From positions 139,873-203,872 of the forward strand of contig CASFSV010000014.1 of assembly GCA_949297415.1 (NCBI GenBank): a stretch of DNA of 64,000 nucleotides, written 5' to 3'. The position numbers and the translations under genes are program-made. Positions 6,602-61,235 of the stretch are shown one piece after another; position 1 is the first letter of the stretch; every line of letters begins with the position of its first letter. A model generated the notes under the pieces. The model saw only the letters and a list, made by a program, of their open reading frames with translations, searched no databases and was not told the DNA's origin. The DNA comes from an uncultured Alphaproteobacteria bacterium (lineage in GTDB: Bacteria > Pseudomonadota > Alphaproteobacteria > RF32 > CAG-239).

Positions 6602-6622
6602 TTGCGTATCGCCATATTTTTT

Positions 6623-6660
6623 GCATAAAAAAGAGGTGCCGGCAGACACCTCTTCTTTTT
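6623..6660. terminator. bidirectional terminator hairpin between convergent der and pilin-like gene
   Basis: AAGAGGTG-CCGGCAGA-CACCTCTT (8-bp stem) flanked by an A-run on one side and a T-run on the other. It works as a terminator in either direction. Confidence 0.45.
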
Positions 6661-6678: not shown

Positions 6679-7332
6679 TTAGAAGTACTTCCAAACAACA
6701 CCGTTCAAGTTATTAGCGCAAGCGCCGTTTGCATCAATAATGCTAAATGGTAAACCGTGATCTGTGTCACCAGGAATGTGAAGGTTTGTACCAGCTGCCA
6801 AGGTTGATGTAACACCATCAAGAGCATTCAAAGTACCGCCAGAAGCGCTACCTGCTACACCTTCACCAATCCACATAGCTGCCAAGCCTGAACCTGCGTC
6901 TCCACCCCAGTCAGTAGTTGCAATTGATACGCAAGCACTTTGTGGAATTTGGTCAACTGCGATTGTAAATGCCATATCATCATTAGCTGTTGATTGATCT
7001 ACAACGTTAATTGCAACACCACCACCAAATGCGTTAGTAATTGTGTAATCACTGTCATATGCACCACCAGAAGATACAGCTTGATACATTTCACCTGGGA
7101 TTAAACCAGCTTGTAATGCCATACCGTTGTTCAAACCAGCATATGTTCTTTGTGAAGAGAACAATGTTCTGATGTTTGTGGAAATCATTTGAATTTGATC
7201 ACCAACTTTGTTTGTCTTAAATTTGTTCATTGCTTTTGAATAACCAGCGATACCACCAACTGACAAAACGCCAACGATAGCCAACACGCCGAGCATTTCA
7301 ATCATTGAACGACCTTGCTCATTAACTCTCAT
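6679..7332 (-). CDS. type IV pilin-like protein (prepilin-type N-terminal leader plus hydrophobic helix; Gly/Ala/Ser/Thr-rich globular part)
   Basis: N-terminus MRVNEQG|RSMIEMLGVLAIVGVLSVGGIAGY has a short basic leader, Gly at -1, Glu at +5 and a ~20-aa hydrophobic helix, which is a class III signal. Two C-terminal Cys (QSACVS ... ANGACANN) are consistent with a pilin disulfide loop. Strong RBS (AGGAGA 7 nt upstream). Visibly higher GC and C/G-ending codons than neighbours. Confidence 0.55.
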   Translation of the reverse strand: MRVNEQGRSMIEMLGVLAIVGVLSVGGIAGYSKAMNKFKTNKVGDQIQMISTNIRTLFSSQRTYAGLNNGMALQAGLIPGEMYQAVSSGGAYDSDYTITNAFGGGVAINVVDQSTANDDMAFTIAVDQIPQSACVSIATTDWGGDAGSGLAAMWIGEGVAGSASGGTLNALDGVTSTLAAGTNLHIPGDTDHGLPFSIIDANGACANNLNGVVWKYF

Positions 7333-7547
7333 ATTAATTCTCCTAAAATATATGTACCTTAAACATTGTTTACTTTACATTAGAAAATGCTTTTTTACAA
7401 TTATGTAAATAGTCATAGTCTTTAACTAAAGTAATAGATAAGGTTGTTACCTCTAAGTTTATTACTTACAAGCAGTCCTAAACTTGTTTTGGATTTTAAA
7501 TGGTAAAACTTAATATTTCCCTAACAAAAACGAATATTCTTAATCTT

Positions 7548-47125: not shown

Positions 47126-50100
47126 GTGCTAAAAAAGATTATTGTCGGTATTTTGTGCTTTATTATATTAGCTGCTACAGGAGGCGGTATTTATATTTAT
47201 ACTCTGGACTGGAATAAGCACAAAGCCCTTGTTGCTCAACGTTTTTCACAAATTACAGGGCTTAAAGCTGTAATTGAGGGTAATTTGGATGTCAAATTAT
47301 TCCCTTCTCCTAAATTCTCTGCCGGTAAAGTTAAATTTTATAAAACAAACGGCGGTAAGACACCTCTGGTTGTTGTTGACGATTTAACTGCCAATGTTGA
47401 TTTGATGCCTCTATTGGATAATAATTTTATAGTCAAATCAATGACGCTTTCTAAAGCTGTTGCTTATGTTGAAGTTAATAAAAAAGGGATTAGTAACTGG
47501 GATGGTGTTGGAGCGAACAGTAATACAAAGTCTGGAAATATTGAAGTTTCTTTCAACGATGTTCGTGTAACAAACTCAACGTTAAGTTATAAAAATCTTG
47601 AAGATAATTCTCAGTTTGATATTAATAATGTTTCGGCTAATATTTCGGCTTCAGCTTTGTCTGGACCCTATAAGACTAATGGTAAATTCATTCATAATAA
47701 TAGTGAAATCTTATTCAAAGGTAATATTACCAAAAATGATAATATACTGCTTAAACTTGAGTTAACTAACGCCGCAACTGGTTCCGCCATTACTCTGGAC
47801 GGTTCTTTAGGAGATAAAGCAAAGGGTACTTTTACTCTGGACACTCAAAGCTTATATGATGTTTCCAACATTATTTGGGGAAATGATACAATATCTAATA
47901 GATATAACGATCCTTTGTTCTTATCCTTTCAATATAGCTATGATAAATCTATCCTAAAGCTTGATAATTTTACTACTAAATTTGATAAAAATACTGCCGG
48001 TAGCGGAACTGTTATTGTTAATCGCTCTTCAAGCATTCCCCAAGTTAATGCTTCTTTTGATTTGACAAAGTTTGATCTAAATCTTTTTGAGAAATTAGTT
48101 CAAGATATTGTTGATTATACTAAAGCTGGAAAGAAATTCGCTCAATCTCCTTTTGCCGGATATGATCTTTCTTTTTCTGCTAAGGCTACTTCTGCTTGGT
48201 ATAATAATGCTGAAGCTCGTAACTTAACTATGGCAATTAATGTGAAGCAAAATGTTATTGATATTGCTCGCTTAGGTGTTGTTATGCCTGGTGAAACAAT
48301 TATTAAAACAGTTGGTAAAATTAATTTAAGTAATGGAATTGACTATATCTTTAATCAAGCTTTTGATACTAAAGATTTGCGGACTTTTGCTTCTGTCTTT
48401 AATCTTGATTTAGCTAAACTTGCTTCTGCAGATAATAAGAAATCAATCTTCAAGAAAGCTCAGGCTGATATTAAAGTTATTGGTAATATGGATAGTGTTA
48501 AAATTTCTATCCCCAAAGCTTCTATTGATGCTATTGATTTCAACGGAAATCTCGGCATAGTTCAAAAAGATAAAGTTTTTGTTTTAGCCGATTTGAATGT
48601 TTCTAAAGTTATCTTGGATAAATATTTATTAGGTATTCCTAATAATCTTAAAACAGCTTCATTGAAAGATAAATTTGTTTATCAAATGAATTTATTACCT
48701 TGGAATAAAAATCTCAGCGTTGATGCTGAAATTAATGCGGCTAGTGTCGTTTATAACGATATTCCTATGGAAAAACTTTATTTGCACTTCACTTCTGAAA
48801 AAGATGTTCTTGATATTGCTCAATTTTCTGTTAGCAATTTTGCCGGTGCTGATGTTAATTTGAAAATGAGTGCAAATAACATTTTTTCTACACCTTACTT
48901 TAATGAATTAAGTTTTGATGTAAAAACTGATAATTTTCCTTTATTTACCTCAACTTTGGGTATTAGTACAGGTGATAAAAACCTATTTAAACGTAAGCTT
49001 TTTGCTTTACAAGGTGCCTTAAGTGGTTCTTTTGATGATTTTAGTTTGAGCTCGGTTCAGAAATTTGGTGATACTGAATTTGCTTACACTGGTACTGTTA
49101 TCAACAAAGCTAAAACTCCTTTGAGTATTGATGGTGATTTGGAATTAAAAACAAACAACTTTAATTCTTTTATTAAGGCGCTGAATTTTAACTATTCTGC
49201 AGATATTCCTGTTACAACTTTTGCTCTTGCTTCTAAAATTAAAGGCTCTTATGATATTTTTGATTTAAGCAATATCAGTGCATATCTTGGAGCTAACGCT
49301 ATTAAGGGAAATTTGCATTTTGATAATACTGCTTTGAAGCCCAAACTGACAGCTACTCTGGATTTTGATAAATTTGATGCTGACAGATGGTTTAATTTAA
49401 ATAAAAATTTAGCAAAAGTTCCTGCTCAAAAGGGGCGTGATACTTTTATAGCTAAGAACTTCTCCAATGAGAAAATTGATTTTTCTCCTCTCGGAAAAAT
49501 AGATTTTAATATTAAAGCTGCTGCAAATCAATTAAATTTCTATGGGCAAACTTATACTAATGCAAAAACTGATATTACTCTAAAAGACAATCTTCTTAAA
49601 GTTGCCTCTTTTGATACCACTATTGATAAAAGTATTATCAATTTCCGTTTTGATTTAAATGCTGGGGACTTACCGAGAATTGATGGTTATTTCAATATCA
49701 AAGATGTAAAAACTCCAGAACTCGGCGGAAGTTTATATATTATAGAAAATGGTTGGCTTACAGCTGAAGGTACTTTTAATGCGCCAATCTCTTCTGAAGC
49801 TGACTTTTTTGAAAATCTTAATTCCAAAGGTAAATTTTCCTTTACTAACACTGCTATTCGCGGTTGGGATTTAGATATCATCAAATTTGAGCTTGAACAA
49901 AGAAAAAATATTGCTGGCTTCGAAGATACTGTTCAAAATAGTTTGAAATCTGGAAAAAGTAGTTTCTCAAGAATTAGAGGAAATTATAATATTAGTAAAG
50001 GCTTTGCTGTTGCTGAGAGTGTTATTTGGGAATCACCTGTTCTTAATATGAACCTAAAATTTGACTTAAATTTAAGTGATTGGATTTTCCATGCAATATT

Positions 50101-52357
50101 TAACGCTGTTTATCATAATGCGTCTTTCTCTGATATATTAAAATTCTCTTTTGATGGTGATTTTGCTAATCCTACACTTAAACTCGATTTAAGCGAAAGT
50201 ATTAAAAGAATTAGCGAAATTGAAGATAAAATTAAAAATGCTCGCCAATATAAAGAAAAAGAAAAAATGGAAAAAATTGGTGGAAAACTTAAAGCTTTAC
50301 AAAGGGCTATTGATGGAACTTTGCAAGATATTAGTCGTTTAACTTTGGATGTAGTACGCTTTAAACCGATTACAAATAATGAAAATGTTGTATCTGTTTA
50401 CCAAGAAAATCTGAAAACAATAAATACTGTTGAAATCAACATTAAAAAAATGAAAGATTTGCTGAATACTTATCCGGATGAAAAAACTCTTATAAGTATT
50501 GAGGCTGATTTAGGTGCGGAAAAGGCTAAGTTGAGATATATTCCTAAAGTGTTGGAAGAAAACTTTATTGTTGATAGTAAATACATCTTTGATGATACAT
50601 TTAACAAAATAGCTTGGGTGTACAATTTATCTCAAAATAATTATGCTTATCATCGTAGTCTAACTGATGTTTATATGGCTCAGGTTGAATTACTTAAATC
50701 TAGCACTACTCCTGTAAGTGACGAAGATACTAATAAATTGCTGGATGGTATTGATAAAACTAAAGAGGTTATGGATAATATCAGTGCTTTGCATGGTAAA
50801 ATTCGTGATAATTATCTCAATATTATTGATTCTGCAAAAGTTTCTCAAATGAAGGAAAATAATGCTCTTGCTCAACAAGCTCTGGAAACTTTGCTTACTT
50901 ATTCTAAGCAACTGTATAATGATATTGTTATCAATATTGATGATTTCAGATTGATTTTGGGAATTAATGCACGCGATTATGACCAGTTTATGCTTTATCC
51001 TCCAGAAACCACTGCAGAAATTGATATAAAGCAACCAACTGTAAAAAGCGGAAATGAAAATAATTCTATAGTTTCCACATCAAAAGATGTTCCGGATATT
51101 TCCGCTAATACAGGAGATGCTACAAAAGTAACACAACCTTCTTCGGATACGCAAAAATCTGAAGAAAAAGATAAAAAAAAAGAAGCTCTTAATTTAACTT
51201 TGCAATCTACTGCGACTAATGGACTTTCTGAAGTTTTAAGTAAACTTAAAGAAGAAAAAGACTTTCGTAATGATGTTAAGATTGCTTCTAATTTAGACTT
51301 TGGTGGTCTTTCCTCTCTCTTTAAAAGCAATATAGACGCTTCAAAAGATAAAACAGAAGTATCATCTTCTGCTGAACATTCTCAGAAAATAGTTGAACCT
51401 GAGCCAAAAAATCAAACTATTGAGATTGCTCAGAAAAGTAAAACATCAATAACTGATAAAAAAGCTGATAGAAATACTGTTCTTGCTCAAAATACTAATG
51501 TAGAGAAACATGCTAAAAATAAATCTGATGGTGATAAGCATGATCTGTTAATAGCTGCTGCAACAGATGATAATCTTTTGGCTAAAACTAAATCTGCCAT
51601 TGCCAAAATTCTTTCTAAAATTAAACAACAAGAACAAGACTTAACAAAAAATGTTGCTTCAAACAATCCTGTTCCTGCTATTGTTTCTTCTAATAATAAA
51701 ATTACGGATAATAATACTGCGAAAAAAGCTCCTTCACTCATAGCAAGTATTGCCTCTATTCCTTCACTGCCTACAGACGAAAAAAAAGTATTAGCTAATG
51801 ATAAAGGTATTTCTTCTTTGAAAGTTAATCCTGTTGTTGCTTTAAATATTGGTAAAGAAGTTATCAATGATACTGTTACTGAACCAATAAAAAAAATAAC
51901 ACCTAGAGCTAAATTTAAAAAAGTTGCTTCTAATAATGATAAATCAGCTCTTAAACCTCTTTCTCAGGAGCAAATAGATAAGTTTTCACGATATCTTAAT
52001 GAGGCTTTAGGGGAAGAACAAGATACTCCCAGTAGCACACAGTTGTTGATTGCAGCTTTACCTCGTCCACAAAAGTCTTTAGATACTGCAGAAGTCAATA
52101 TATTAACAGATAACGCTCTTATTACTGTTAATACCCCTGATGAGAAAATTAACCATCCATCCAATCATTATGTTTGGCAAACAAAAAACACTGTTTCCCC
52201 GCAACTTAGTGGTACTGTTGGCAAAGAAATGCTAAAAACAGTTGCAGCTCCTAGTAGCAATAGTTCTTCTGAACATAAATATTTGTTTGCTGCAAATTCT
52301 ACTCATCGTTTGAATTTTTCCGGTAATATTTCTAAGAATCTTTCTTTAACTGATTAA
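47126..52357 (+). CDS. AsmA/TamB-family giant envelope protein (1743 aa) with ~560-aa low-complexity/coiled-coil C-terminal extension
   Basis: GTG start with AGGAGA RBS. N-terminal signal-anchor MLKKIIVGILCFIILAATGGGIYIY followed by LDWNKHKALVAQRFSQITG, the AsmA N-terminal pattern. A long beta-rich Asn/Ser/Thr-rich body. From ~residue 1180 it is Lys/Glu/Ser/Thr-rich and non-globular. Confidence 0.75.
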   Translation: MLKKIIVGILCFIILAATGGGIYIYTLDWNKHKALVAQRFSQITGLKAVIEGNLDVKLFPSPKFSAGKVKFYKTNGGKTPLVVVDDLTANVDLMPLLDNNFIVKSMTLSKAVAYVEVNKKGISNWDGVGANSNTKSGNIEVSFNDVRVTNSTLSYKNLEDNSQFDINNVSANISASALSGPYKTNGKFIHNNSEILFKGNITKNDNILLKLELTNAATGSAITLDGSLGDKAKGTFTLDTQSLYDVSNIIWGNDTISNRYNDPLFLSFQYSYDKSILKLDNFTTKFDKNTAGSGTVIVNRSSSIPQVNASFDLTKFDLNLFEKLVQDIVDYTKAGKKFAQSPFAGYDLSFSAKATSAWYNNAEARNLTMAINVKQNVIDIARLGVVMPGETIIKTVGKINLSNGIDYIFNQAFDTKDLRTFASVFNLDLAKLASADNKKSIFKKAQADIKVIGNMDSVKISIPKASIDAIDFNGNLGIVQKDKVFVLADLNVSKVILDKYLLGIPNNLKTASLKDKFVYQMNLLPWNKNLSVDAEINAASVVYNDIPMEKLYLHFTSEKDVLDIAQFSVSNFAGADVNLKMSANNIFSTPYFNELSFDVKTDNFPLFTSTLGISTGDKNLFKRKLFALQGALSGSFDDFSLSSVQKFGDTEFAYTGTVINKAKTPLSIDGDLELKTNNFNSFIKALNFNYSADIPVTTFALASKIKGSYDIFDLSNISAYLGANAIKGNLHFDNTALKPKLTATLDFDKFDADRWFNLNKNLAKVPAQKGRDTFIAKNFSNEKIDFSPLGKIDFNIKAAANQLNFYGQTYTNAKTDITLKDNLLKVASFDTTIDKSIINFRFDLNAGDLPRIDGYFNIKDVKTPELGGSLYIIENGWLTAEGTFNAPISSEADFFENLNSKGKFSFTNTAIRGWDLDIIKFELEQRKNIAGFEDTVQNSLKSGKSSFSRIRGNYNISKGFAVAESVIWESPVLNMNLKFDLNLSDWIFHAIFNAVYHNASFSDILKFSFDGDFANPTLKLDLSESIKRISEIEDKIKNARQYKEKEKMEKIGGKLKALQRAIDGTLQDISRLTLDVVRFKPITNNENVVSVYQENLKTINTVEINIKKMKDLLNTYPDEKTLISIEADLGAEKAKLRYIPKVLEENFIVDSKYIFDDTFNKIAWVYNLSQNNYAYHRSLTDVYMAQVELLKSSTTPVSDEDTNKLLDGIDKTKEVMDNISALHGKIRDNYLNIIDSAKVSQMKENNALAQQALETLLTYSKQLYNDIVINIDDFRLILGINARDYDQFMLYPPETTAEIDIKQPTVKSGNENNSIVSTSKDVPDISANTGDATKVTQPSSDTQKSEEKDKKKEALNLTLQSTATNGLSEVLSKLKEEKDFRNDVKIASNLDFGGLSSLFKSNIDASKDKTEVSSSAEHSQKIVEPEPKNQTIEIAQKSKTSITDKKADRNTVLAQNTNVEKHAKNKSDGDKHDLLIAAATDDNLLAKTKSAIAKILSKIKQQEQDLTKNVASNNPVPAIVSSNNKITDNNTAKKAPSLIASIASIPSLPTDEKKVLANDKGISSLKVNPVVALNIGKEVINDTVTEPIKKITPRAKFKKVASNNDKSALKPLSQEQIDKFSRYLNEALGEEQDTPSSTQLLIAALPRPQKSLDTAEVNILTDNALITVNTPDEKINHPSNHYVWQTKNTVSPQLSGTVGKEMLKTVAAPSSNSSSEHKYLFAANSTHRLNFSGNISKNLSLTD

Positions 52358-56095: not shown

Positions 56096-56956
56096 TCAGA
56101 GTTTGAGTAGGCTGTTCAACTTTCCTGATAGAGCTTTTATACTATCTTCTAATAGTTTTTCTATCAATTTATGAGCTATCTCTTGAGTATTTTGCTCTTT
56201 GCTAATGATGATATAGCGATTTTGTGTTTCCGAATCGACTAAGGTGCCGTCGTTTTTTCTTAATTCTATCATTACAGACATACTGTAGCGACTATTTGTT
56301 TCATTAATAGGTTCTATTTTAGATAAAACTAATTTTGGTGCAATAAAATAATCTGCCAACTCTTGGCTTTCTGTTACCAGTACACGTGGCTCAAAACTCA
56401 ACTGTTCAGCTATTTTTGCTGTAAAAACTGAAGAGGTATTGCCATTGTAATATTCCATTTCCTTTATATACAATAAAGGATGTGTACTATCGGTTTCGTA
56501 CATTGATTTAGGCAATATGGTATTAACCTGTTGAGCTATTTTTTCAACTTTATTTTCATTAAATTGTGGTAATTTTTCTGTGGTGGCTATTTCTGCTATT
56601 TTTTCTTTAGCTAATTTTCCATTTATCTCTAAGCATATTTTTTCACTGTCGTCTTGAACTGTAATTACAGTTATATCACTTAAAGCCTTATCCGCTATTC
56701 TATACGCTAATATGTTGTAACTGTGGTCATCCATATTTTGAGCAACAGACTTCACTTCCGGACATTTTTTTACTGCCATCAGTACTGCTTTGTCATATGC
56801 CTTATATCGAATTTCTGAACGAGTTTGTTCCTCATTTATTTCTGAACAAGCCGTCGCTCTTACGTCCACAAAAAAGCTGTCTGCCTTAGCTTCACCGATT
56901 ACATTTATCAGCATCACTAAAACAGACAGTTTTATTAGTAAAAATTTCATCATCAA
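56096..56956 (-). CDS. exported hypothetical protein
   Basis: Signal peptide MMMKFLLIKLSVLVMLINVIGEAKA. 286 aa. Directly downstream of the lipoprotein gene (1-nt gap). Confidence 0.5.
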   Translation of the reverse strand: MMMKFLLIKLSVLVMLINVIGEAKADSFFVDVRATACSEINEEQTRSEIRYKAYDKAVLMAVKKCPEVKSVAQNMDDHSYNILAYRIADKALSDITVITVQDDSEKICLEINGKLAKEKIAEIATTEKLPQFNENKVEKIAQQVNTILPKSMYETDSTHPLLYIKEMEYYNGNTSSVFTAKIAEQLSFEPRVLVTESQELADYFIAPKLVLSKIEPINETNSRYSMSVMIELRKNDGTLVDSETQNRYIIISKEQNTQEIAHKLIEKLLEDSIKALSGKLNSLLKL

Positions 56957-56957
56957 A

Positions 56958-57920
56958 CTATTCTTGTACTTGTCTGATAATTTCTACCCATTCATTTACT
57001 TTTTTACCGTTTTTATCAAACATGGCTAACTTGTATTGCAATGCCGGTGTTGTATTATCCGGAGCAACATACCAATCAGCTGATGTTTCTACAACAAAGT
57101 CAGCATTATTTATATTATTTACAACTTCATATGTCTTGGAGCCACTGATAATATCTTTGGTTGCACCTTTCAATCGATGACTTCCATACGGTAAATCTGA
57201 ACTCAACAATTTAGTATCTTTAATATAAATTGTTCTTGTTTTACCACTGTCATAAATTGCAGATGTATCTTGCAACATACGATTTGTTGCACGTGTTGCT
57301 ACCACAATGTATGCTTCTGGAGAATATTTGGCAACACTTGCTGCATCAACTTTAGCATTGGCTGATTTCATTCCGATTACTTCTGAATGATATGGATTTT
57401 GTTTTACTGTTACTTCAACCAAATCTTCTGCTGGTGCTGTTTTTGGTGCTTCAGGGGCTGTTGGTGTATAACCACTGTAACTAACTTCTGCCGGAATAAT
57501 CTCTTCGTGTGTTACAACTACAGGTTCACATACATCCTTGCCACATGGTTCTTCCATTGTAGTCGTTGTTGTGATAATTTTTTTGGTTGTGGTTACTTTG
57601 GGCTGTGGCATAGGCATTGGTTGGCATCCGCATGGTTGCATACATGTCGGTTGATAGCATGGCTGTGCTACTTCTGCACATGGACAATCATAAACAGGTT
57701 GCGGTGCTGGAATATATACCGGTTCCGGCTTTACCACTACCGGTGCCGGAGCTGGTGCAACAGCCATTGGCATAGGCATTGGTGTCGGTTCAATCATTGG
57801 GGCTTGGTCTTCATAGACCGTCTCATCAAAAGTTACGTTGTCTACCTCTTCCCACTGGTTGTCGCTGTGTGAACACGCTGCCAGTATTGTACAGGTTATG
57901 ACACTTATTATTCTTTTCAT
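56958..57920 (-). CDS. lipoprotein with Pro/Met- and Cys-rich linker and globular C-terminal domain
   Basis: Lipobox ILAAC|S. Linker PMPMPMAVAPAPAPVVVKPEPVYIPAPQPVYDCPCAEVAQPCYQPTCMQPCGCQPMPMPQP. The C-terminal ~200 aa are predicted globular. Confidence 0.6.
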   Translation of the reverse strand: MKRIISVITCTILAACSHSDNQWEEVDNVTFDETVYEDQAPMIEPTPMPMPMAVAPAPAPVVVKPEPVYIPAPQPVYDCPCAEVAQPCYQPTCMQPCGCQPMPMPQPKVTTTKKIITTTTTMEEPCGKDVCEPVVVTHEEIIPAEVSYSGYTPTAPEAPKTAPAEDLVEVTVKQNPYHSEVIGMKSANAKVDAASVAKYSPEAYIVVATRATNRMLQDTSAIYDSGKTRTIYIKDTKLLSSDLPYGSHRLKGATKDIISGSKTYEVVNNINNADFVVETSADWYVAPDNTTPALQYKLAMFDKNGKKVNEWVEIIRQVQE

Positions 57921-60035: not shown

Positions 60036-61235
60036 TTAGGCTTTGATAGTAATATTGCGCGTAAATTTACATGCCTTCTGTAAATTTTCTTCCGCACGGA
60101 TGAGTACACTCATAGCATCAGCATCGCTTCTTTTTTTCTCGCTAATACACTGCGATACTGTTAATTGCAGATTGTTATTTTCATTAAAAACAAAAATAGA
60201 CTTTGCTATACTCCGACGGATATTCTCAGCCTTTTCGAAACTTTCTGATGCATTCATATTTGTAAAGGCTAAAATTAAAGCATCGGGCTTATAATTGTAT
60301 AACAAAACATCTGCATTGACATTTCTGATACGTTCTAAAAACATCTTTTTTAATAGGAGCATTTTTCTATAGCCAAAACGTTTTTTCAAGCGTTCATATT
60401 CGTCAATATACATCAAGGAAATACTATATTTTAGCGGATATTTATTTTCCGCCTCTCGGCTGTACTCCTTATAATTATCTATATCAAGATCTTCATCACG
60501 TCTTCTGGTATATAGAACATAATCTATTGAAGAAACCAAAAGAATCAGACTTGAACTTAAAAAGAACAAACTAAAAGCCAATAAATTATCCGAATAATAT
60601 ATTCCCATATATACAGCTATTGCTGTAAATAGAGTTGTTGCACTTAATCTTTTGCCTTTTCCTACATAATATAACAAAAGTAATGTTATACATATCAGAG
60701 ATATAAACAATGCCGGATAGTTAAACATACCAATGTGTTTATAAAAATAGTACGAATCCGCGTCAATGCTATGATTTTGTAATTTTTCAATCAATGCTGT
60801 CTGAAGAAAAAGAAAAATATAGAAAATACTCCAATATCTATAGTTGCGCTGTTTACAAAATATAAAATAGGCTAACACTAAATTGGGAAGAATGAGCGCA
60901 CTCCATATATTGTATCCCGATGAAAAAATATAATCTTCCCCATATGTATATCTTAAGCTATTTATGACTAGATAACTTATATATATAACTGAAGCCTGAA
61001 TTACAGAGCTTATAACTTTTAAACTTCCCATTATCATCATGGTCAAAAATATACACCCAATAAATGATGCATGTATTGTCTGATAGTTATCTTCTGAAAA
61101 ATCAGATACAGAAAAAAAATATACGAAAAAAGTGCCGATAATTAAAATCGGCAACCACGCTCCTTTATTAAACTTTGCAATCTTTTCCAGTTCAAATTCC
61201 AGCAACATCAATCTCCGGTGATTGTTTATTTTCAC
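60036..61235 (-). CDS. polytopic membrane protein with C-terminal degenerate GGDEF-like domain
   Basis: About 7 TM helices, then ~150 aa with GGDEF-domain-like secondary pattern. The GG(D/E)EF site is replaced (YNYKPDALIL). It ends ...RAEENLQKACKF, resembling the GGDEF C-terminal helix (RADxALYxAK). Confidence 0.45.
   Translation of the reverse strand: MKINNHRRLMLLEFELEKIAKFNKGAWLPILIIGTFFVYFFSVSDFSEDNYQTIHASFIGCIFLTMMIMGSLKVISSVIQASVIYISYLVINSLRYTYGEDYIFSSGYNIWSALILPNLVLAYFIFCKQRNYRYWSIFYIFLFLQTALIEKLQNHSIDADSYYFYKHIGMFNYPALFISLICITLLLLYYVGKGKRLSATTLFTAIAVYMGIYYSDNLLAFSLFFLSSSLILLVSSIDYVLYTRRRDEDLDIDNYKEYSREAENKYPLKYSISLMYIDEYERLKKRFGYRKMLLLKKMFLERIRNVNADVLLYNYKPDALILAFTNMNASESFEKAENIRRSIAKSIFVFNENNNLQLTVSQCISEKKRSDADAMSVLIRAEENLQKACKFTRNITIKA

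What the first reader, a model, noticed from the sequence alone, without database searches (positions are those of the whole stretch)
6679..7332. Type IV pilin-like gene with atypical +1 residue and compositional signature of a highly expressed or foreign gene
It has a prepilin-like N-terminus (G|RSMIEM, Glu at +5, hydrophobic helix) but Arg instead of Phe or Met at +1. The rest is a 190-aa Gly/Ala/Ser/Thr-rich body with two Cys. The gene has noticeably higher GC and G/C-ending codons than neighbours and a strong AGGAGA RBS. No pil or gsp assembly genes are in this window. It is either a very highly expressed major pilin or pseudopilin, or horizontally acquired.
Basis: partly seen in the sequence, partly recalled or inferred. 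Interest (0 to 1): 0.55.

Follow-up and report, generated by a model that had tools for sequence, protein, structure and literature searches.

The report
Highly expressed type IVb pilin gene
This gene encodes the building block of a type IVb pilus (a retractable surface fibre) in an uncultured gut alphaproteobacterium; it is native and probably very highly expressed, and its odd arginine at the first mature position is the fixed hallmark of a large, unstudied pilin family.

Summary
The ORF is real: window 6679-7332, minus strand, 217 aa. It is a type IVb pilin. It scores above Pfam's cut-offs for PilS_N and Bundlin. A profile of the family hits BfpA and PilS in the PDB, and the AF2 model matches CofA, TcpA and PilS.

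Arg at +1 is not an oddity of this gene. The mature N-terminus RSM(I/V)EMLGVLAI(I/V)GVLSVGGIAGYSKAM is almost invariant, and 144 of 145 family representatives have Arg+1. The hosts are uncultured gut and rumen Alphaproteobacteria.

In one lineage (CAG:495 and relatives) such pilins sit directly behind an R64-thin-pilus-type operon: TcpQ, secretin, PilO2, ATPase, platform, pilins, second ATPase. Two other relatives encode a methylase-less A24 prepilin peptidase. None of these genes is in this window, and the rest of this genome could not be searched.

The "foreign gene" reading fails. GC3 is ordinary, the excess GC comes from Gly/Ala/Ser/Thr codons, and synteny is conserved in relatives.

The "highly expressed" reading holds. 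The gene has the highest CAI of 50 ORFs against the same strain's rpsI and rplM (0.706, z = 3.8). It also has the lowest ENC, a lower dS than its neighbours, a strong SD and its own terminator.

Verdict: a new variant of a known kind, of moderate interest.

The parts
6679..7332 (-). Prepilin coding sequence, 217 aa, stop TAA at 6679-6681
   Evidence: ORF list. Pfam PilS_N 44.7 bits (cut-off 22) and Bundlin 38.2 bits (cut-off 22.3). More than 7000 homologues. AF2 model pLDDT 83.6 with Foldseek matches to CofA, TcpA and PilS.
7312..7332 (-). Leader peptide MRVNEQG (7 aa), ending in the Gly-1 at which a prepilin peptidase is expected to cut
   Evidence: Read directly from the sequence. Gly-1 is invariant in A1. 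Leader lengths in the family are mostly 5-12 aa. The cleavage itself is inferred.
7228..7311 (-). Mature N-terminal helix alpha1N, RSMIEMLGVLAIVGVLSVGGIAGYSKAM. It carries Arg1, Ser2, Glu5, Gly14 and Gly19, and has no Pro22. It would act as the membrane anchor and the filament-core interface.
   Evidence: Invariant or nearly invariant in 107 distinct family sequences and in A1. The model shows a helix over residues 5-58. Synonymous codons differ between paralogues, so the constraint is on the protein.
6682..7227 (-). Rest of alpha1 plus the variable globular alpha/beta domain, with the two invariant cysteines (C134 at 6931-6933, C205 at 6718-6720) and the C-terminal WKY/F motif
   Evidence: Alignment A1. 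Profile matches to BfpA 1zwt (1.9e-10) and PilS 1q5f (1.7e-7). Fold matches. dN/dS is 0.17-0.27, against 0.01-0.05 for neighbouring genes. The disulfide is inferred.
7339..7344 (-). Shine-Dalgarno sequence AGGAGA, 6 nt before the ATG
   Evidence: Sequence. Invariant in five orthologous loci.
7333..7520 (-). Conserved upstream region (promoter and/or 5' leader). It includes the palindrome TTTACATAATTGTAAA at 7394-7409.
   Evidence: 87% mean column identity across species whose pilin proteins are only 60-85% identical. In the scan (which allowed a 4-6 nt spacer), the palindrome lay at a fixed distance in 10 of the 111 pilin genes, all members of this 'MR.NEQG' orthologue group. No Rfam match and no covariation. 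Function is not established.
6621..6658 (-). Intrinsic terminator: a 14-bp GC-containing hairpin followed by a U tract, placed between the convergent pilin and der genes
   Evidence: RNA fold -24.9 kcal/mol, z = -4.3 against shuffles. The same hairpin was flagged on the + strand.

Best explanation
The gene encodes the precursor of a type IVb pilin of the PilS/bundlin family in an uncultured, AT-rich gut alphaproteobacterium.

Proposed mechanism:
1. The prepilin inserts into the inner membrane through its hydrophobic alpha1N helix.
2. An A24 aspartic prepilin peptidase removes the 7-residue leader MRVNEQG after Gly-1. In relatives this enzyme lacks the N-methyltransferase domain.
3. The mature protein, starting Arg1-Ser2-Met3-Ile4-Glu5, is polymerised into a type IVb pilus.
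4. The machinery is of the R64-thin-pilus type: secretin plus TcpQ-like pilotin, PilO2, extension ATPase and platform protein, with a second PilT/BfpF-like ATPase that probably retracts the fibre. It is encoded elsewhere in the genome.
5. The near-invariant alpha1N is the shared assembly interface. The fast-evolving globular domain, probably disulfide-bonded, is the exposed surface.

The gene is a native, monocistronic unit. Its codon usage marks it as one of the most highly expressed genes of the region, which fits a major pilin.

Shown here: gene structure, family membership, fold, conservation pattern, codon and expression signature, vertical inheritance, and the presence of the machinery in related lineages.

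Inferred: cleavage site, lack of N-methylation, filament assembly, retraction, major-pilin status, and presence of the machinery in this genome.
For: - Family and fold. Pfam PilS_N and Bundlin score above their gathering cut-offs. A family profile hits BfpA (1.9e-10), S. Typhi PilS (1.7e-7) and TcpA (7e-4) in the PDB. The AF2 model (pLDDT 83.6) gives its top Foldseek hits, all at probability 1.0, to the CofA pilus 9iuf, the TcpA pilus 8uhf and PilS 3fhu.
- Class III signal. Gly-1 and Glu+5 are invariant, followed by a 23-residue hydrophobic stretch. Ser2, Glu5, Gly14, Gly19 and the absence of Pro22 match the T4b features described in PMC10710030.
- Machinery in relatives. In L047, L055, L059, L061 and L082, and in the independently called L089 and L090, the gene order is TcpQ (PF10671), secretin (PF00263), PilO2 (PF06864), a 480-aa protein, T2SSE ATPase, T2SSF platform, pilins of this family, then a second T2SSE ATPase.
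- Peptidase in relatives. A 237-aa Peptidase_A24 lies about 3 kb from family pilins in L028 and L057. It has no methylase domain and no CxxC pairs.
- Closer link. Assembly CAKQLF01 carries der-linked pilins like the window's (L032) and also the PilT-like ATPase (L040).
- Expression. CAI against rpsI and rplM of the same strain (L088, 99.8% identical DNA) is 0.706, the highest of 50 ORFs (mean 0.511, z = 3.8). ENC is the lowest in the window, 35.1. dS is 0.7-0.9, against 1.1-2.0 in flanking genes. There is a strong SD and a dedicated terminator.
- Native origin. GC3 is normal. The order yfgM-bamB-thyX-der-pilin-MIF-ABC is conserved in L005-L008.
Against: - No prepilin peptidase, ATPase, platform or secretin is present in the 64-kb window or in about 14 kb of additional flank. 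The rest of this genome could not be searched, so a cognate machinery is not demonstrated for this organism.
- The complete operon was seen in only one lineage, whose ATPases are 82-88% identical to each other.
- Generic prepilin N-terminal models score just below their cut-offs: PF07963 15.0 against 21.2, and TIGR02532 15.7 against 16.3.
- The 7-aa leader is shorter than the classical 15-30 aa of T4b prepilins.
- High expression is inferred from codon statistics against only two ribosomal genes. It was not measured.
- No sigma-70 promoter stood out upstream.
Confidence: 0.78

Rival explanations
1. It is a pilin of the same T4b system, but not the major structural subunit. It could be one of several alternative or minor pilins, or the subunit of a short pseudopilus used mainly for protein export, as TCP and CFA/III export TcpF and CofJ.
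For: Related genomes carry many full-length paralogues with the same alpha1N: at least 10 in JAZNJJ01 and at least 8 in CAKQLF01. In operon-bearing lineages the pilins next to the platform gene are different paralogues, with a KNEQSG leader. T4b systems are known to double as secretion devices (established knowledge).
Against: This gene has the strongest ribosomal-protein-like codon bias in the window and keeps Glu5. Tip-capping minor pilins lack Glu5 (PMC10191384). No second locus from the closest genomes (CALXWH01, CALXTN01, CASFQO01, MNTT01) appeared among the 80 best hits of the genome scan. That suggests, without proving it, that this is the main copy in this clade.
Confidence: 0.13
2. 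It is a horizontally acquired gene, and its elevated GC reflects a foreign donor.
For: It has the highest GC of 49 ORFs (0.419 against 0.353 for the window). R64-type pil genes are typically carried by plasmids and integrative elements (PMC3984277). In CAG:495 genomes the operon lies next to TrbC-like genes.
Against: GC3 is 0.289, within 0.5 sd of the window mean, and the excess lies at codon position 2, from Gly/Ala/Ser/Thr. Its codon preferences are those of the host's own ribosomal protein genes. Gene order on both sides is the same in four other species, and a der-adjacent pilin is also found in the distant L032. No mobility genes flank it.
Confidence: 0.04
3. It is an orphan pilin-like membrane or periplasmic protein that is no longer assembled into a fibre. 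In this reading the N-terminus acts as an uncleaved anchor or an ordinary Sec signal in a genome that lacks the machinery.
For: No machinery genes are in the window. Generic prepilin motif models are sub-threshold. Arg+1 is unusual.
Against: The extreme purifying selection on Gly-1, Arg1, Ser2, Glu5 and the whole alpha1N across thousands of sequences is what a filament-core and peptidase interface predicts. A mere anchor would not predict it. The same N-terminus is found on pilins sitting inside T4bP operons. The hydrophobic stretch of 23 residues is too long for a typical Sec h-region (inference).
Confidence: 0.05

Closest known systems
PilS, major pilin of the R64 thin pilus and of the Salmonella Typhi pil system (Pfam PF08805; PDB 1q5f, 3fhu)
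   Same: There is a Pfam PilS_N match above cut-off, a profile hit to 1q5f (1.7e-7) and a fold match to 3fhu. In relatives the pilins lie after pilQ-like and pilR-like genes in an operon containing PilO2 (PF06864), the marker of the R64 variant.
   Different: The mature protein starts with Arg, a residue I know of in no characterised pilin (from memory; not tested here). The leader is only 7 aa. The gene is chromosomal and stands alone among housekeeping genes, not on a conjugative element. No PilV shufflon adhesin was seen. The sequence identity reported by the fold search is about 20-22%.
Bundlin BfpA of enteropathogenic E. coli (Pfam PF05307; PDB 1zwt)
   Same: It is the best sequence-profile hit among solved structures (1.9e-10 over residues 39-183), and Pfam Bundlin scores above cut-off. 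The BFP system also has a second, retraction ATPase (BfpF), like the second T2SSE gene in the relatives' operon (established knowledge).
   Different: BfpA has a Leu+1 and a longer leader (from memory). The BFP operon composition (BfpB, C, G, U and others) was not found. The relatives' operon has PilO2 and TcpQ instead.
TcpA (V. cholerae TCP) and CofA (ETEC CFA/III) type IVb pilins (PDB 8uhf, 9iuf, 3s0t)
   Same: They are the best structural matches (Foldseek E 3e-8 to 3e-6, TM 0.6-0.7). They share the T4b alpha1 features Gly14 and Gly19 and lack Pro22, which predicts a continuous, non-melted helix (PMC10710030). A TcpQ homologue is present in the relatives' operon.
   Different: TcpA starts with Met1 (PMC10710030; the same is recalled for CofA), and the TcpA and CofA leaders are about 25-30 aa (from memory). 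Sequence identity is 12-20%. There is no evidence here of a secreted TcpF- or CofJ-like partner.
Burkholderia pseudomallei Tfp7 (chromosomal R64-variant T4bP operon with TcpQ2)
   Same: It is a chromosomal R64-type operon that uses TcpQ in place of PilL and lacks a peptidase gene in the operon (PMC3984277). The same holds for the alphaproteobacterial operon in L055 and L089.
   Different: The gene order differs. The alphaproteobacterial lineage has dispersed pilin paralogues sharing an identical alpha1N and Arg+1.

Membership tests
Type IV pilin (class III signal peptide) | Short hydrophilic leader ending in an invariant Gly at -1 | tested here: met
   The leader is MRVNEQG. Gly7 is invariant in A1. 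All 111 family ORFs picked by a pattern that starts at this Gly have it 5-12 residues (typically) after the start.
Type IV pilin (class III signal peptide) | Glu at +5 within a stretch of about 21 hydrophobic residues that forms an extended alpha-helix | tested here: met
   Glu5 is invariant in A1 and present in every pattern-selected family ORF (the pattern required it). Residues 2-24 are hydrophobic. The AF2 helix spans residues 5-58. Definition taken from PMC4471445.
Type IV pilin (class III signal peptide) | Scores above the curated cut-off of the generic N-terminal models (Pfam N_methyl PF07963; TIGR02532) | tested here: not met
   PF07963 gives 15.0 bits against a cut-off of 21.2. TIGR02532 gives 15.7 against 16.3. 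It is a near miss; the Arg+1/Ser2/Met3 start differs from the model's GFTLIE-type consensus and may be the reason.
Type IV pilin (class III signal peptide) | Processed by a dedicated A24 prepilin peptidase and polymerised into a filament | not testable with these tools
   A24 peptidases exist in related genomes (L028 and L057). Cleavage and assembly require experiments.
Type IVb pilin (PilS, bundlin, TcpA, CofA) | Pfam PilS_N (PF08805) or Bundlin (PF05307) domain above the gathering score | tested here: met
   PilS_N 44.7 bits (cut-off 22) and Bundlin 38.2 bits (cut-off 22.3).
Type IVb pilin (PilS, bundlin, TcpA, CofA) | T4b globular fold | tested here: met
   The 16 best Foldseek PDB hits are all T4b pilins, at probability 0.99-1.0. 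The first non-T4b hit is C. difficile PilA1 at E = 0.016.
Type IVb pilin (PilS, bundlin, TcpA, CofA) | Classical length criteria: leader of about 15-30 aa and prepilin of 180-200 aa or more | tested here: not met
   The leader is 7 aa, which is T4a-like. The prepilin is 217 aa, which is T4b-like. PMC4471445 states that these length rules are no longer reliable.
Type IVb pilin (PilS, bundlin, TcpA, CofA) | Alpha1 with Gly14 and Gly19 and without Pro22 (continuous helix) | tested here: met
   In mature numbering the protein has G14, G19 and A22, and these are near-invariant. The criterion is from PMC10710030.
R64-thin-pilus-variant T4bP system | Pilin encoded with PilO2 (PF06864), secretin, PilL/TcpQ, PilQ-type ATPase and PilR-type platform | tested here: inconclusive
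   Met in relatives L047, L055, L059, L061, L082, L089 and L090. Absent from this window.
Type II secretion pseudopilin (GspG-like) | T2SSG domain, and linkage to a gsp operon (GspC, L, M and others) | tested here: not met
   There is no T2SSG hit even at E up to 10. The linked operons in relatives are of T4bP type.
Horizontally acquired island gene | Atypical synonymous composition, a break in synteny, and flanking mobility genes | tested here: not met
   GC3 is ordinary. Codon use is like the host's ribosomal protein genes. Synteny is conserved in L005-L008. The neighbours are housekeeping genes.

The most novel reading that the evidence does not exclude
The G|RSM(I/V)EML pilins may define a distinct subclass of type IVb pili in gut and rumen Alphaproteobacteria. 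In this subclass an invariant Arg1 side chain, one helical turn from Glu5 (i, i+4), would neutralise Glu5 in the membrane and/or in the filament core. It would thereby replace the N-methylated amine of classical pilins. This fits the methylase-less prepilin peptidases of these bacteria. The absolutely conserved alpha1N would let one machine polymerise a repertoire of up to 10 or more interchangeable, independently transcribed pilins with different surfaces, giving host-adaptive or antigenic variation without recombination.
Probability: 0.3. Interest if true: 0.55.

Novelty: new variant of a known kind. Interest (0 to 1): 0.38.

Why it matters
Type IV pili are major colonisation and adhesion organelles. 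Almost all knowledge of the IVb class comes from enteric pathogens and conjugative plasmids. This work shows that a prevalent but uncultured group of commensal gut Alphaproteobacteria encodes a chromosomal R64-like T4bP. Its pilins form a very large, unnamed family with a fixed Arg at the first mature position, a short leader and, in many genomes, numerous paralogues.

The role of residue 1 and of its N-methylation has been described as unexplained for over 40 years (PMC10191384). A natural family that replaces the hydrophobic residue 1 with Arg, and that is paired with methylase-less peptidases, offers a ready-made test case. For this window, the practical outcome is a firm annotation and the removal of the horizontal-transfer hypothesis.

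Tried and rejected
1. Linking the machinery to this genome. I ran tblastn with the relatives' pilus-operon proteins against the window, plus a motif search for the A24 peptidase, and found nothing. Looking up the terminal genes extended the view to about 14 kb of extra flank and showed only housekeeping genes. A 5.8-billion-protein search with the ATPase profile was meant to find a hit on a contig of the same length as a pilin-bearing contig. It returned only close relatives of CAG:495 (at least 81% identity) among the 120 rows shown, so no link could be made.

2. Gene conversion or silent-cassette recombination as the reason for the invariant N-terminus. Rejected, because only 31-80% of codons for identical residues (45-60% in most genomes) are the same between paralogues of one genome.

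3. A riboswitch or structured leader in the conserved upstream region. There was no Rfam match at E up to 10, apart from one chance snoRNA hit. RNAalifold found one compensatory pair among 61, and the covariation term was unfavourable.

4. A sigma-70 promoter upstream. The scan gave no excess over shuffles and no convincing minus-strand site in the intergenic region.

5. Foreign origin. Rejected.

6. A T2SS pseudopilin. Rejected.

7. Foldseek against AFDB50, to obtain UniProt names. The library was not available.

8. Literature searches for RF32 or CAG-495 together with pilin. No paper describing these pili was found.

Full report
**1. The observation**

The ORF list shows a 217-codon ORF at exactly 6679-7332 on the minus strand. 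Its sequence begins MRVNEQGRSMIEMLGVLAIVGVLSVGGIAGYSKAMNKFKTNK.

If cleavage follows Gly7, the mature protein starts Arg1-Ser2-Met3-Ile4-Glu5. The remainder is 41% Gly, Ala, Ser and Thr and has two cysteines, C134 and C205.

AGGAGA lies 6 nt before the ATG. A 14-bp hairpin with a U tract follows the stop codon (-24.9 kcal/mol, z = -4.3). The gene is therefore a self-contained transcription unit. It lies between der (convergent) and a MIF-like tautomerase gene.

Its compositional claim needs correction (section 4).

**2. What it is**

- Pfam scores PilS_N (PF08805, 44.7 bits) and Bundlin (PF05307, 38.2 bits) well above their cut-offs. The generic N_methyl and TIGR02532 motifs fall just below theirs.
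- A profile of 27 homologues hits EPEC bundlin (1zwt, 1.9e-10), S. Typhi PilS (1q5f, 1.7e-7) and TcpA (7e-4) among solved structures.
- An AF2 model (pLDDT 83.6, pTM 0.76) shows a helix of more than 50 residues and an alpha/beta head.
- Its 16 best Foldseek PDB matches are all type IVb pilins or pili: CofA 9iuf, TcpA 8uhf, CofA 3s0t and PilS 3fhu, at probability 0.99-1.0.
- In mature numbering the helix carries Ser2, Glu5, Gly14 and Gly19 and has no Pro22. A recent cryo-EM study gives these as the features of T4b pilins with a continuous alpha1 (PMC10710030).

The protein is a type IVb pilin.

**3. The family and the Arg+1**

- The 5.8-billion-protein search found more than 7000 homologues. 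Only two of the 120 listed carry a source name (both 'pseudopilin PulG', from JGI).
- The 50%-identity representative library holds 5288 clusters at E up to 1e-3 and 1201 at E up to 1e-10.
- In an alignment reaching down to 55% identity, the first 42 residues are essentially invariant.
- In 107 distinct sequences from 84 loci that matched a G[RK]S.. N-terminal pattern, positions 11-28 of the mature protein, which the pattern did not constrain, are over 95% conserved apart from an Ile/Val alternation at position 13. Arg1 is present in all 107, although the pattern also allowed Lys.
- 144 of 145 cluster representatives with a recognisable motif have Arg+1.
- Arg+1 is thus a family signature, not a peculiarity of this gene.
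- Paralogues within one genome share only 31-80% of codons (45-60% in most genomes) at identical residues. The invariance therefore reflects purifying selection on the protein, not gene conversion.

The hosts are uncultured gut and rumen Alphaproteobacteria. Record titles include 'Proteobacteria bacterium CAG:495', 'Acetobacter sp. 46_36' and many MAGs. From memory, GTDB places CAG-495 in family CAG-239, order RF32, and these names co-occur in PMC9253600.

Many genomes carry numerous copies, at least 10 in JAZNJJ01 and at least 8 in CAKQLF01. The window's closest relatives showed only one locus among the 80 best hits.

**4. Foreign or highly expressed?**

Composition:
- Gene GC (0.419) is the highest of 49 ORFs.
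- GC3 is 0.289, against a mean of 0.272 (sd 0.035).
- The excess GC is at codon position 2 (0.468), caused by Gly, Ala, Ser and Thr codons.

Synteny:
- The order yfgM-bamB-thyX-der-pilin-MIF-ABC is identical in four other species, L005-L008.
- A distant genome (L032) also has pilins immediately after der.
- Pilin identity to these relatives is 85, 74, 80, 60 and 43%. It falls broadly in step with that of the flanking proteins.

Horizontal acquisition is therefore not supported.

Codon bias, in contrast, is the strongest in the window:
- ENC is 35.1, the lowest.
- GGT is 81% of Gly codons, AAC is 73% of Asn codons, and ATA is absent.
- G-ending four-fold codons are 1%.

A contig of the same strain (L088, 99.8% identical over the overlap) carries rpsI and rplM.
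- These genes show the same preferences.
- CAI computed against them is 0.706 for the pilin. That is first of 50 ORFs (mean 0.511, sd 0.052, z = 3.8).

Substitution rates point the same way:
- The pilin's synonymous divergence from its orthologues is dS 0.7-0.9, and 0.17-0.46 in the first 50 codons.
- That is well below the dS of der, thyX and the ABC gene (typically 1.1-2.0), as expected under translational selection.
- dN/dS of the globular domain is 0.17-0.27, five to ten times that of the neighbours (0.01-0.05).

This pattern fits an abundant protein with a fast-evolving exposed surface.

**5. Machinery**

The window contains no assembly genes. Everything annotated is housekeeping or envelope-related:
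- the nusA-infB operon, ileS, mscL, lgt and queA;
- an autotransporter and an AsmA-like giant protein;
- glycosyltransferases and others.

Clustering the neighbours of pilin genes in 84 loci revealed a conserved operon in five loci. Independent gene calls in two more confirmed it. The order is:
1. a 390-570-aa protein;
2. TcpQ (PF10671);
3. secretin (PF00263);
4. PilO2 (PF06864);
5. a protein of about 480 aa;
6. a T2SSE ATPase of about 555 aa;
7. a T2SSF platform;
8. a pilin-like protein without a class III motif;
9. one to three G|RSM pilins;
10. a second T2SSE ATPase of about 320 aa.

PF06864 marks the R64-thin-pilus variant of T4bP. The use of TcpQ, and the absence of a peptidase gene from the operon, recall Burkholderia Tfp7 (PMC3984277). 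The second, small ATPase suggests retraction, as with BfpF (inference).

A 237-aa Peptidase_A24 without a methylase domain or CxxC pairs sits next to groES-groEL, about 3 kb from family pilins, in L028 and L057.

Assembly CAKQLF01 combines der-linked pilins (L032) with the small ATPase (L040).

I could not show these genes in the window's own genome. That step remains an inference.

**6. Mechanism proposed**

1. The prepilin inserts into the inner membrane.
2. The A24 peptidase cuts after Gly7.
3. Mature pilin, with Arg1 probably unmethylated, is extracted and polymerised by the ATPase, platform and PilO2 complex.
4. The fibre is extruded through the secretin-TcpQ channel, and may be retracted by the second ATPase.

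In solved T4P structures Glu5 pairs with the N-terminal amine of the next subunit (PMC10191384, PMC10710030). Arg1 lies one helical turn from Glu5. It could add or replace that charge neutralisation. This is inference and is offered as the novel reading.

The likely function is adhesion or aggregation in the gut. A role in mating-pair formation cannot be excluded, because TrbC-like genes flank the operon in CAG:495 genomes.

**7. Regulation**

The 190 nt upstream of the start are 87% identical across species whose pilins are only 60-85% identical. The region contains the palindrome TTTACATAATTGTAAA (7394-7409). In the scan it lay at a fixed distance in 10 of 111 pilin genes, all members of this orthologue group. 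No Rfam family, covariation or clear sigma-70 promoter was found. This remains unexplained.

**8. Verdict**

This is a genuine, native and probably very highly expressed type IVb pilin gene. Automated domain annotation already recognises the fold.

What is new is the family-wide Arg+1 with a short leader, the extreme conservation of alpha1N, the paralogue repertoires, and the association with a chromosomal R64-like T4bP in commensal Alphaproteobacteria. I found no description of any of these in the literature.

It is a new variant of a known kind, of moderate interest.

Noticed in passing
window 7333-7520 (palindrome at 7394-7409): The region upstream of the pilin is more conserved between species (87% column identity) than the coding sequence. 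It carries a perfect palindrome, TTTACA-N4-TGTAAA, 62-77 nt before the ATG. In one search's scan it was found at a fixed distance in 10 of 111 pilin genes, all of this 'MR.NEQG' orthologue group. No Rfam hit and no covariation.
   Followed up: partly
window 56958-57920 (-): A 320-aa predicted lipoprotein (MKRIISVITCTILAAC|S) with a Pro/Cys-rich spacer and no Pfam or NCBIfam family. It has the second-highest CAI in the window (0.631) and elevated GC (0.404). It may be another abundant envelope protein. The adjacent 286-aa ORF (56096-56956) is also unannotated.
   Followed up: no
L083 (4735-5607, 9842-10642, 17308-18168), L081 9133-9954, L068 9878-10666, L084 9668-10627: Some family members have an apparent leader of about 45-130 aa. 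A normal-looking short leader plus 'GRSLL/GRSIL' is followed by a conserved insert of about 35 aa (..SAVY..TQ.K.RQAD..Q.G) and then the full G|RSMIEML N-terminus. About 20 of 145 cluster representatives also show long leaders. This may be real long leaders, a duplicated cleavage site, or over-extended ORF calls.
   Followed up: no
L055 9156-9845; L047 9311-9886; L082 9237-9830; L061 9248-9916; L089 12821-13414: Directly after the platform gene of the T4bP operon lies a protein of about 200 aa. It has one N-terminal transmembrane helix and a weak PilS-like domain but no Gly-1/Glu+5 class III motif. It is a pilin-like component that would not be cut by the prepilin peptidase.
   Followed up: no
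L089 1-2786 and L090 1-2798: In CAG:495-type genomes the T4bP operon is preceded, divergently, by two TrbC/VirB2-like genes (PF04956) and a 1212-aa protein. This hints at a neighbouring type IV secretion or conjugation system, as with R64 and PAPI-1 thin pili. Downstream lies a conserved VWA, PP2C phosphatase and Ser/Thr kinase trio.
   Followed up: no
L028 13358-14071 (-) and L057 13249-13962 (-): The 237-aa A24 prepilin peptidase, which has no methyltransferase domain, is encoded next to groES-groEL and not with the pilus operon.
   Followed up: partly
window 31899-37355 (-) and 47126-52357 (+): There are two giant envelope proteins. One is a 1818-aa autotransporter (PF03797 beta-domain, with BigA-like and EGF-like repeats). 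The other is a 1743-aa AsmA-family protein. Both are notable for an apparently small, AT-rich genome.
   Followed up: no
window 6679-7332, codons 1-50 (7183-7332): Synonymous divergence in the first 50 codons (dS 0.17-0.46) is two- to four-fold lower than in the rest of the same gene. This suggests extra nucleotide-level constraint at the 5' end, continuous with the conserved upstream region.
   Followed up: partly
window 60036-61235 (-): A 399-aa protein with a weak, sub-threshold GGDEF-like C-terminal domain (TIGR00254, 21.5 bits against a cut-off of 37.4). A possible c-di-GMP link to surface-structure control was not examined.
   Followed up: no
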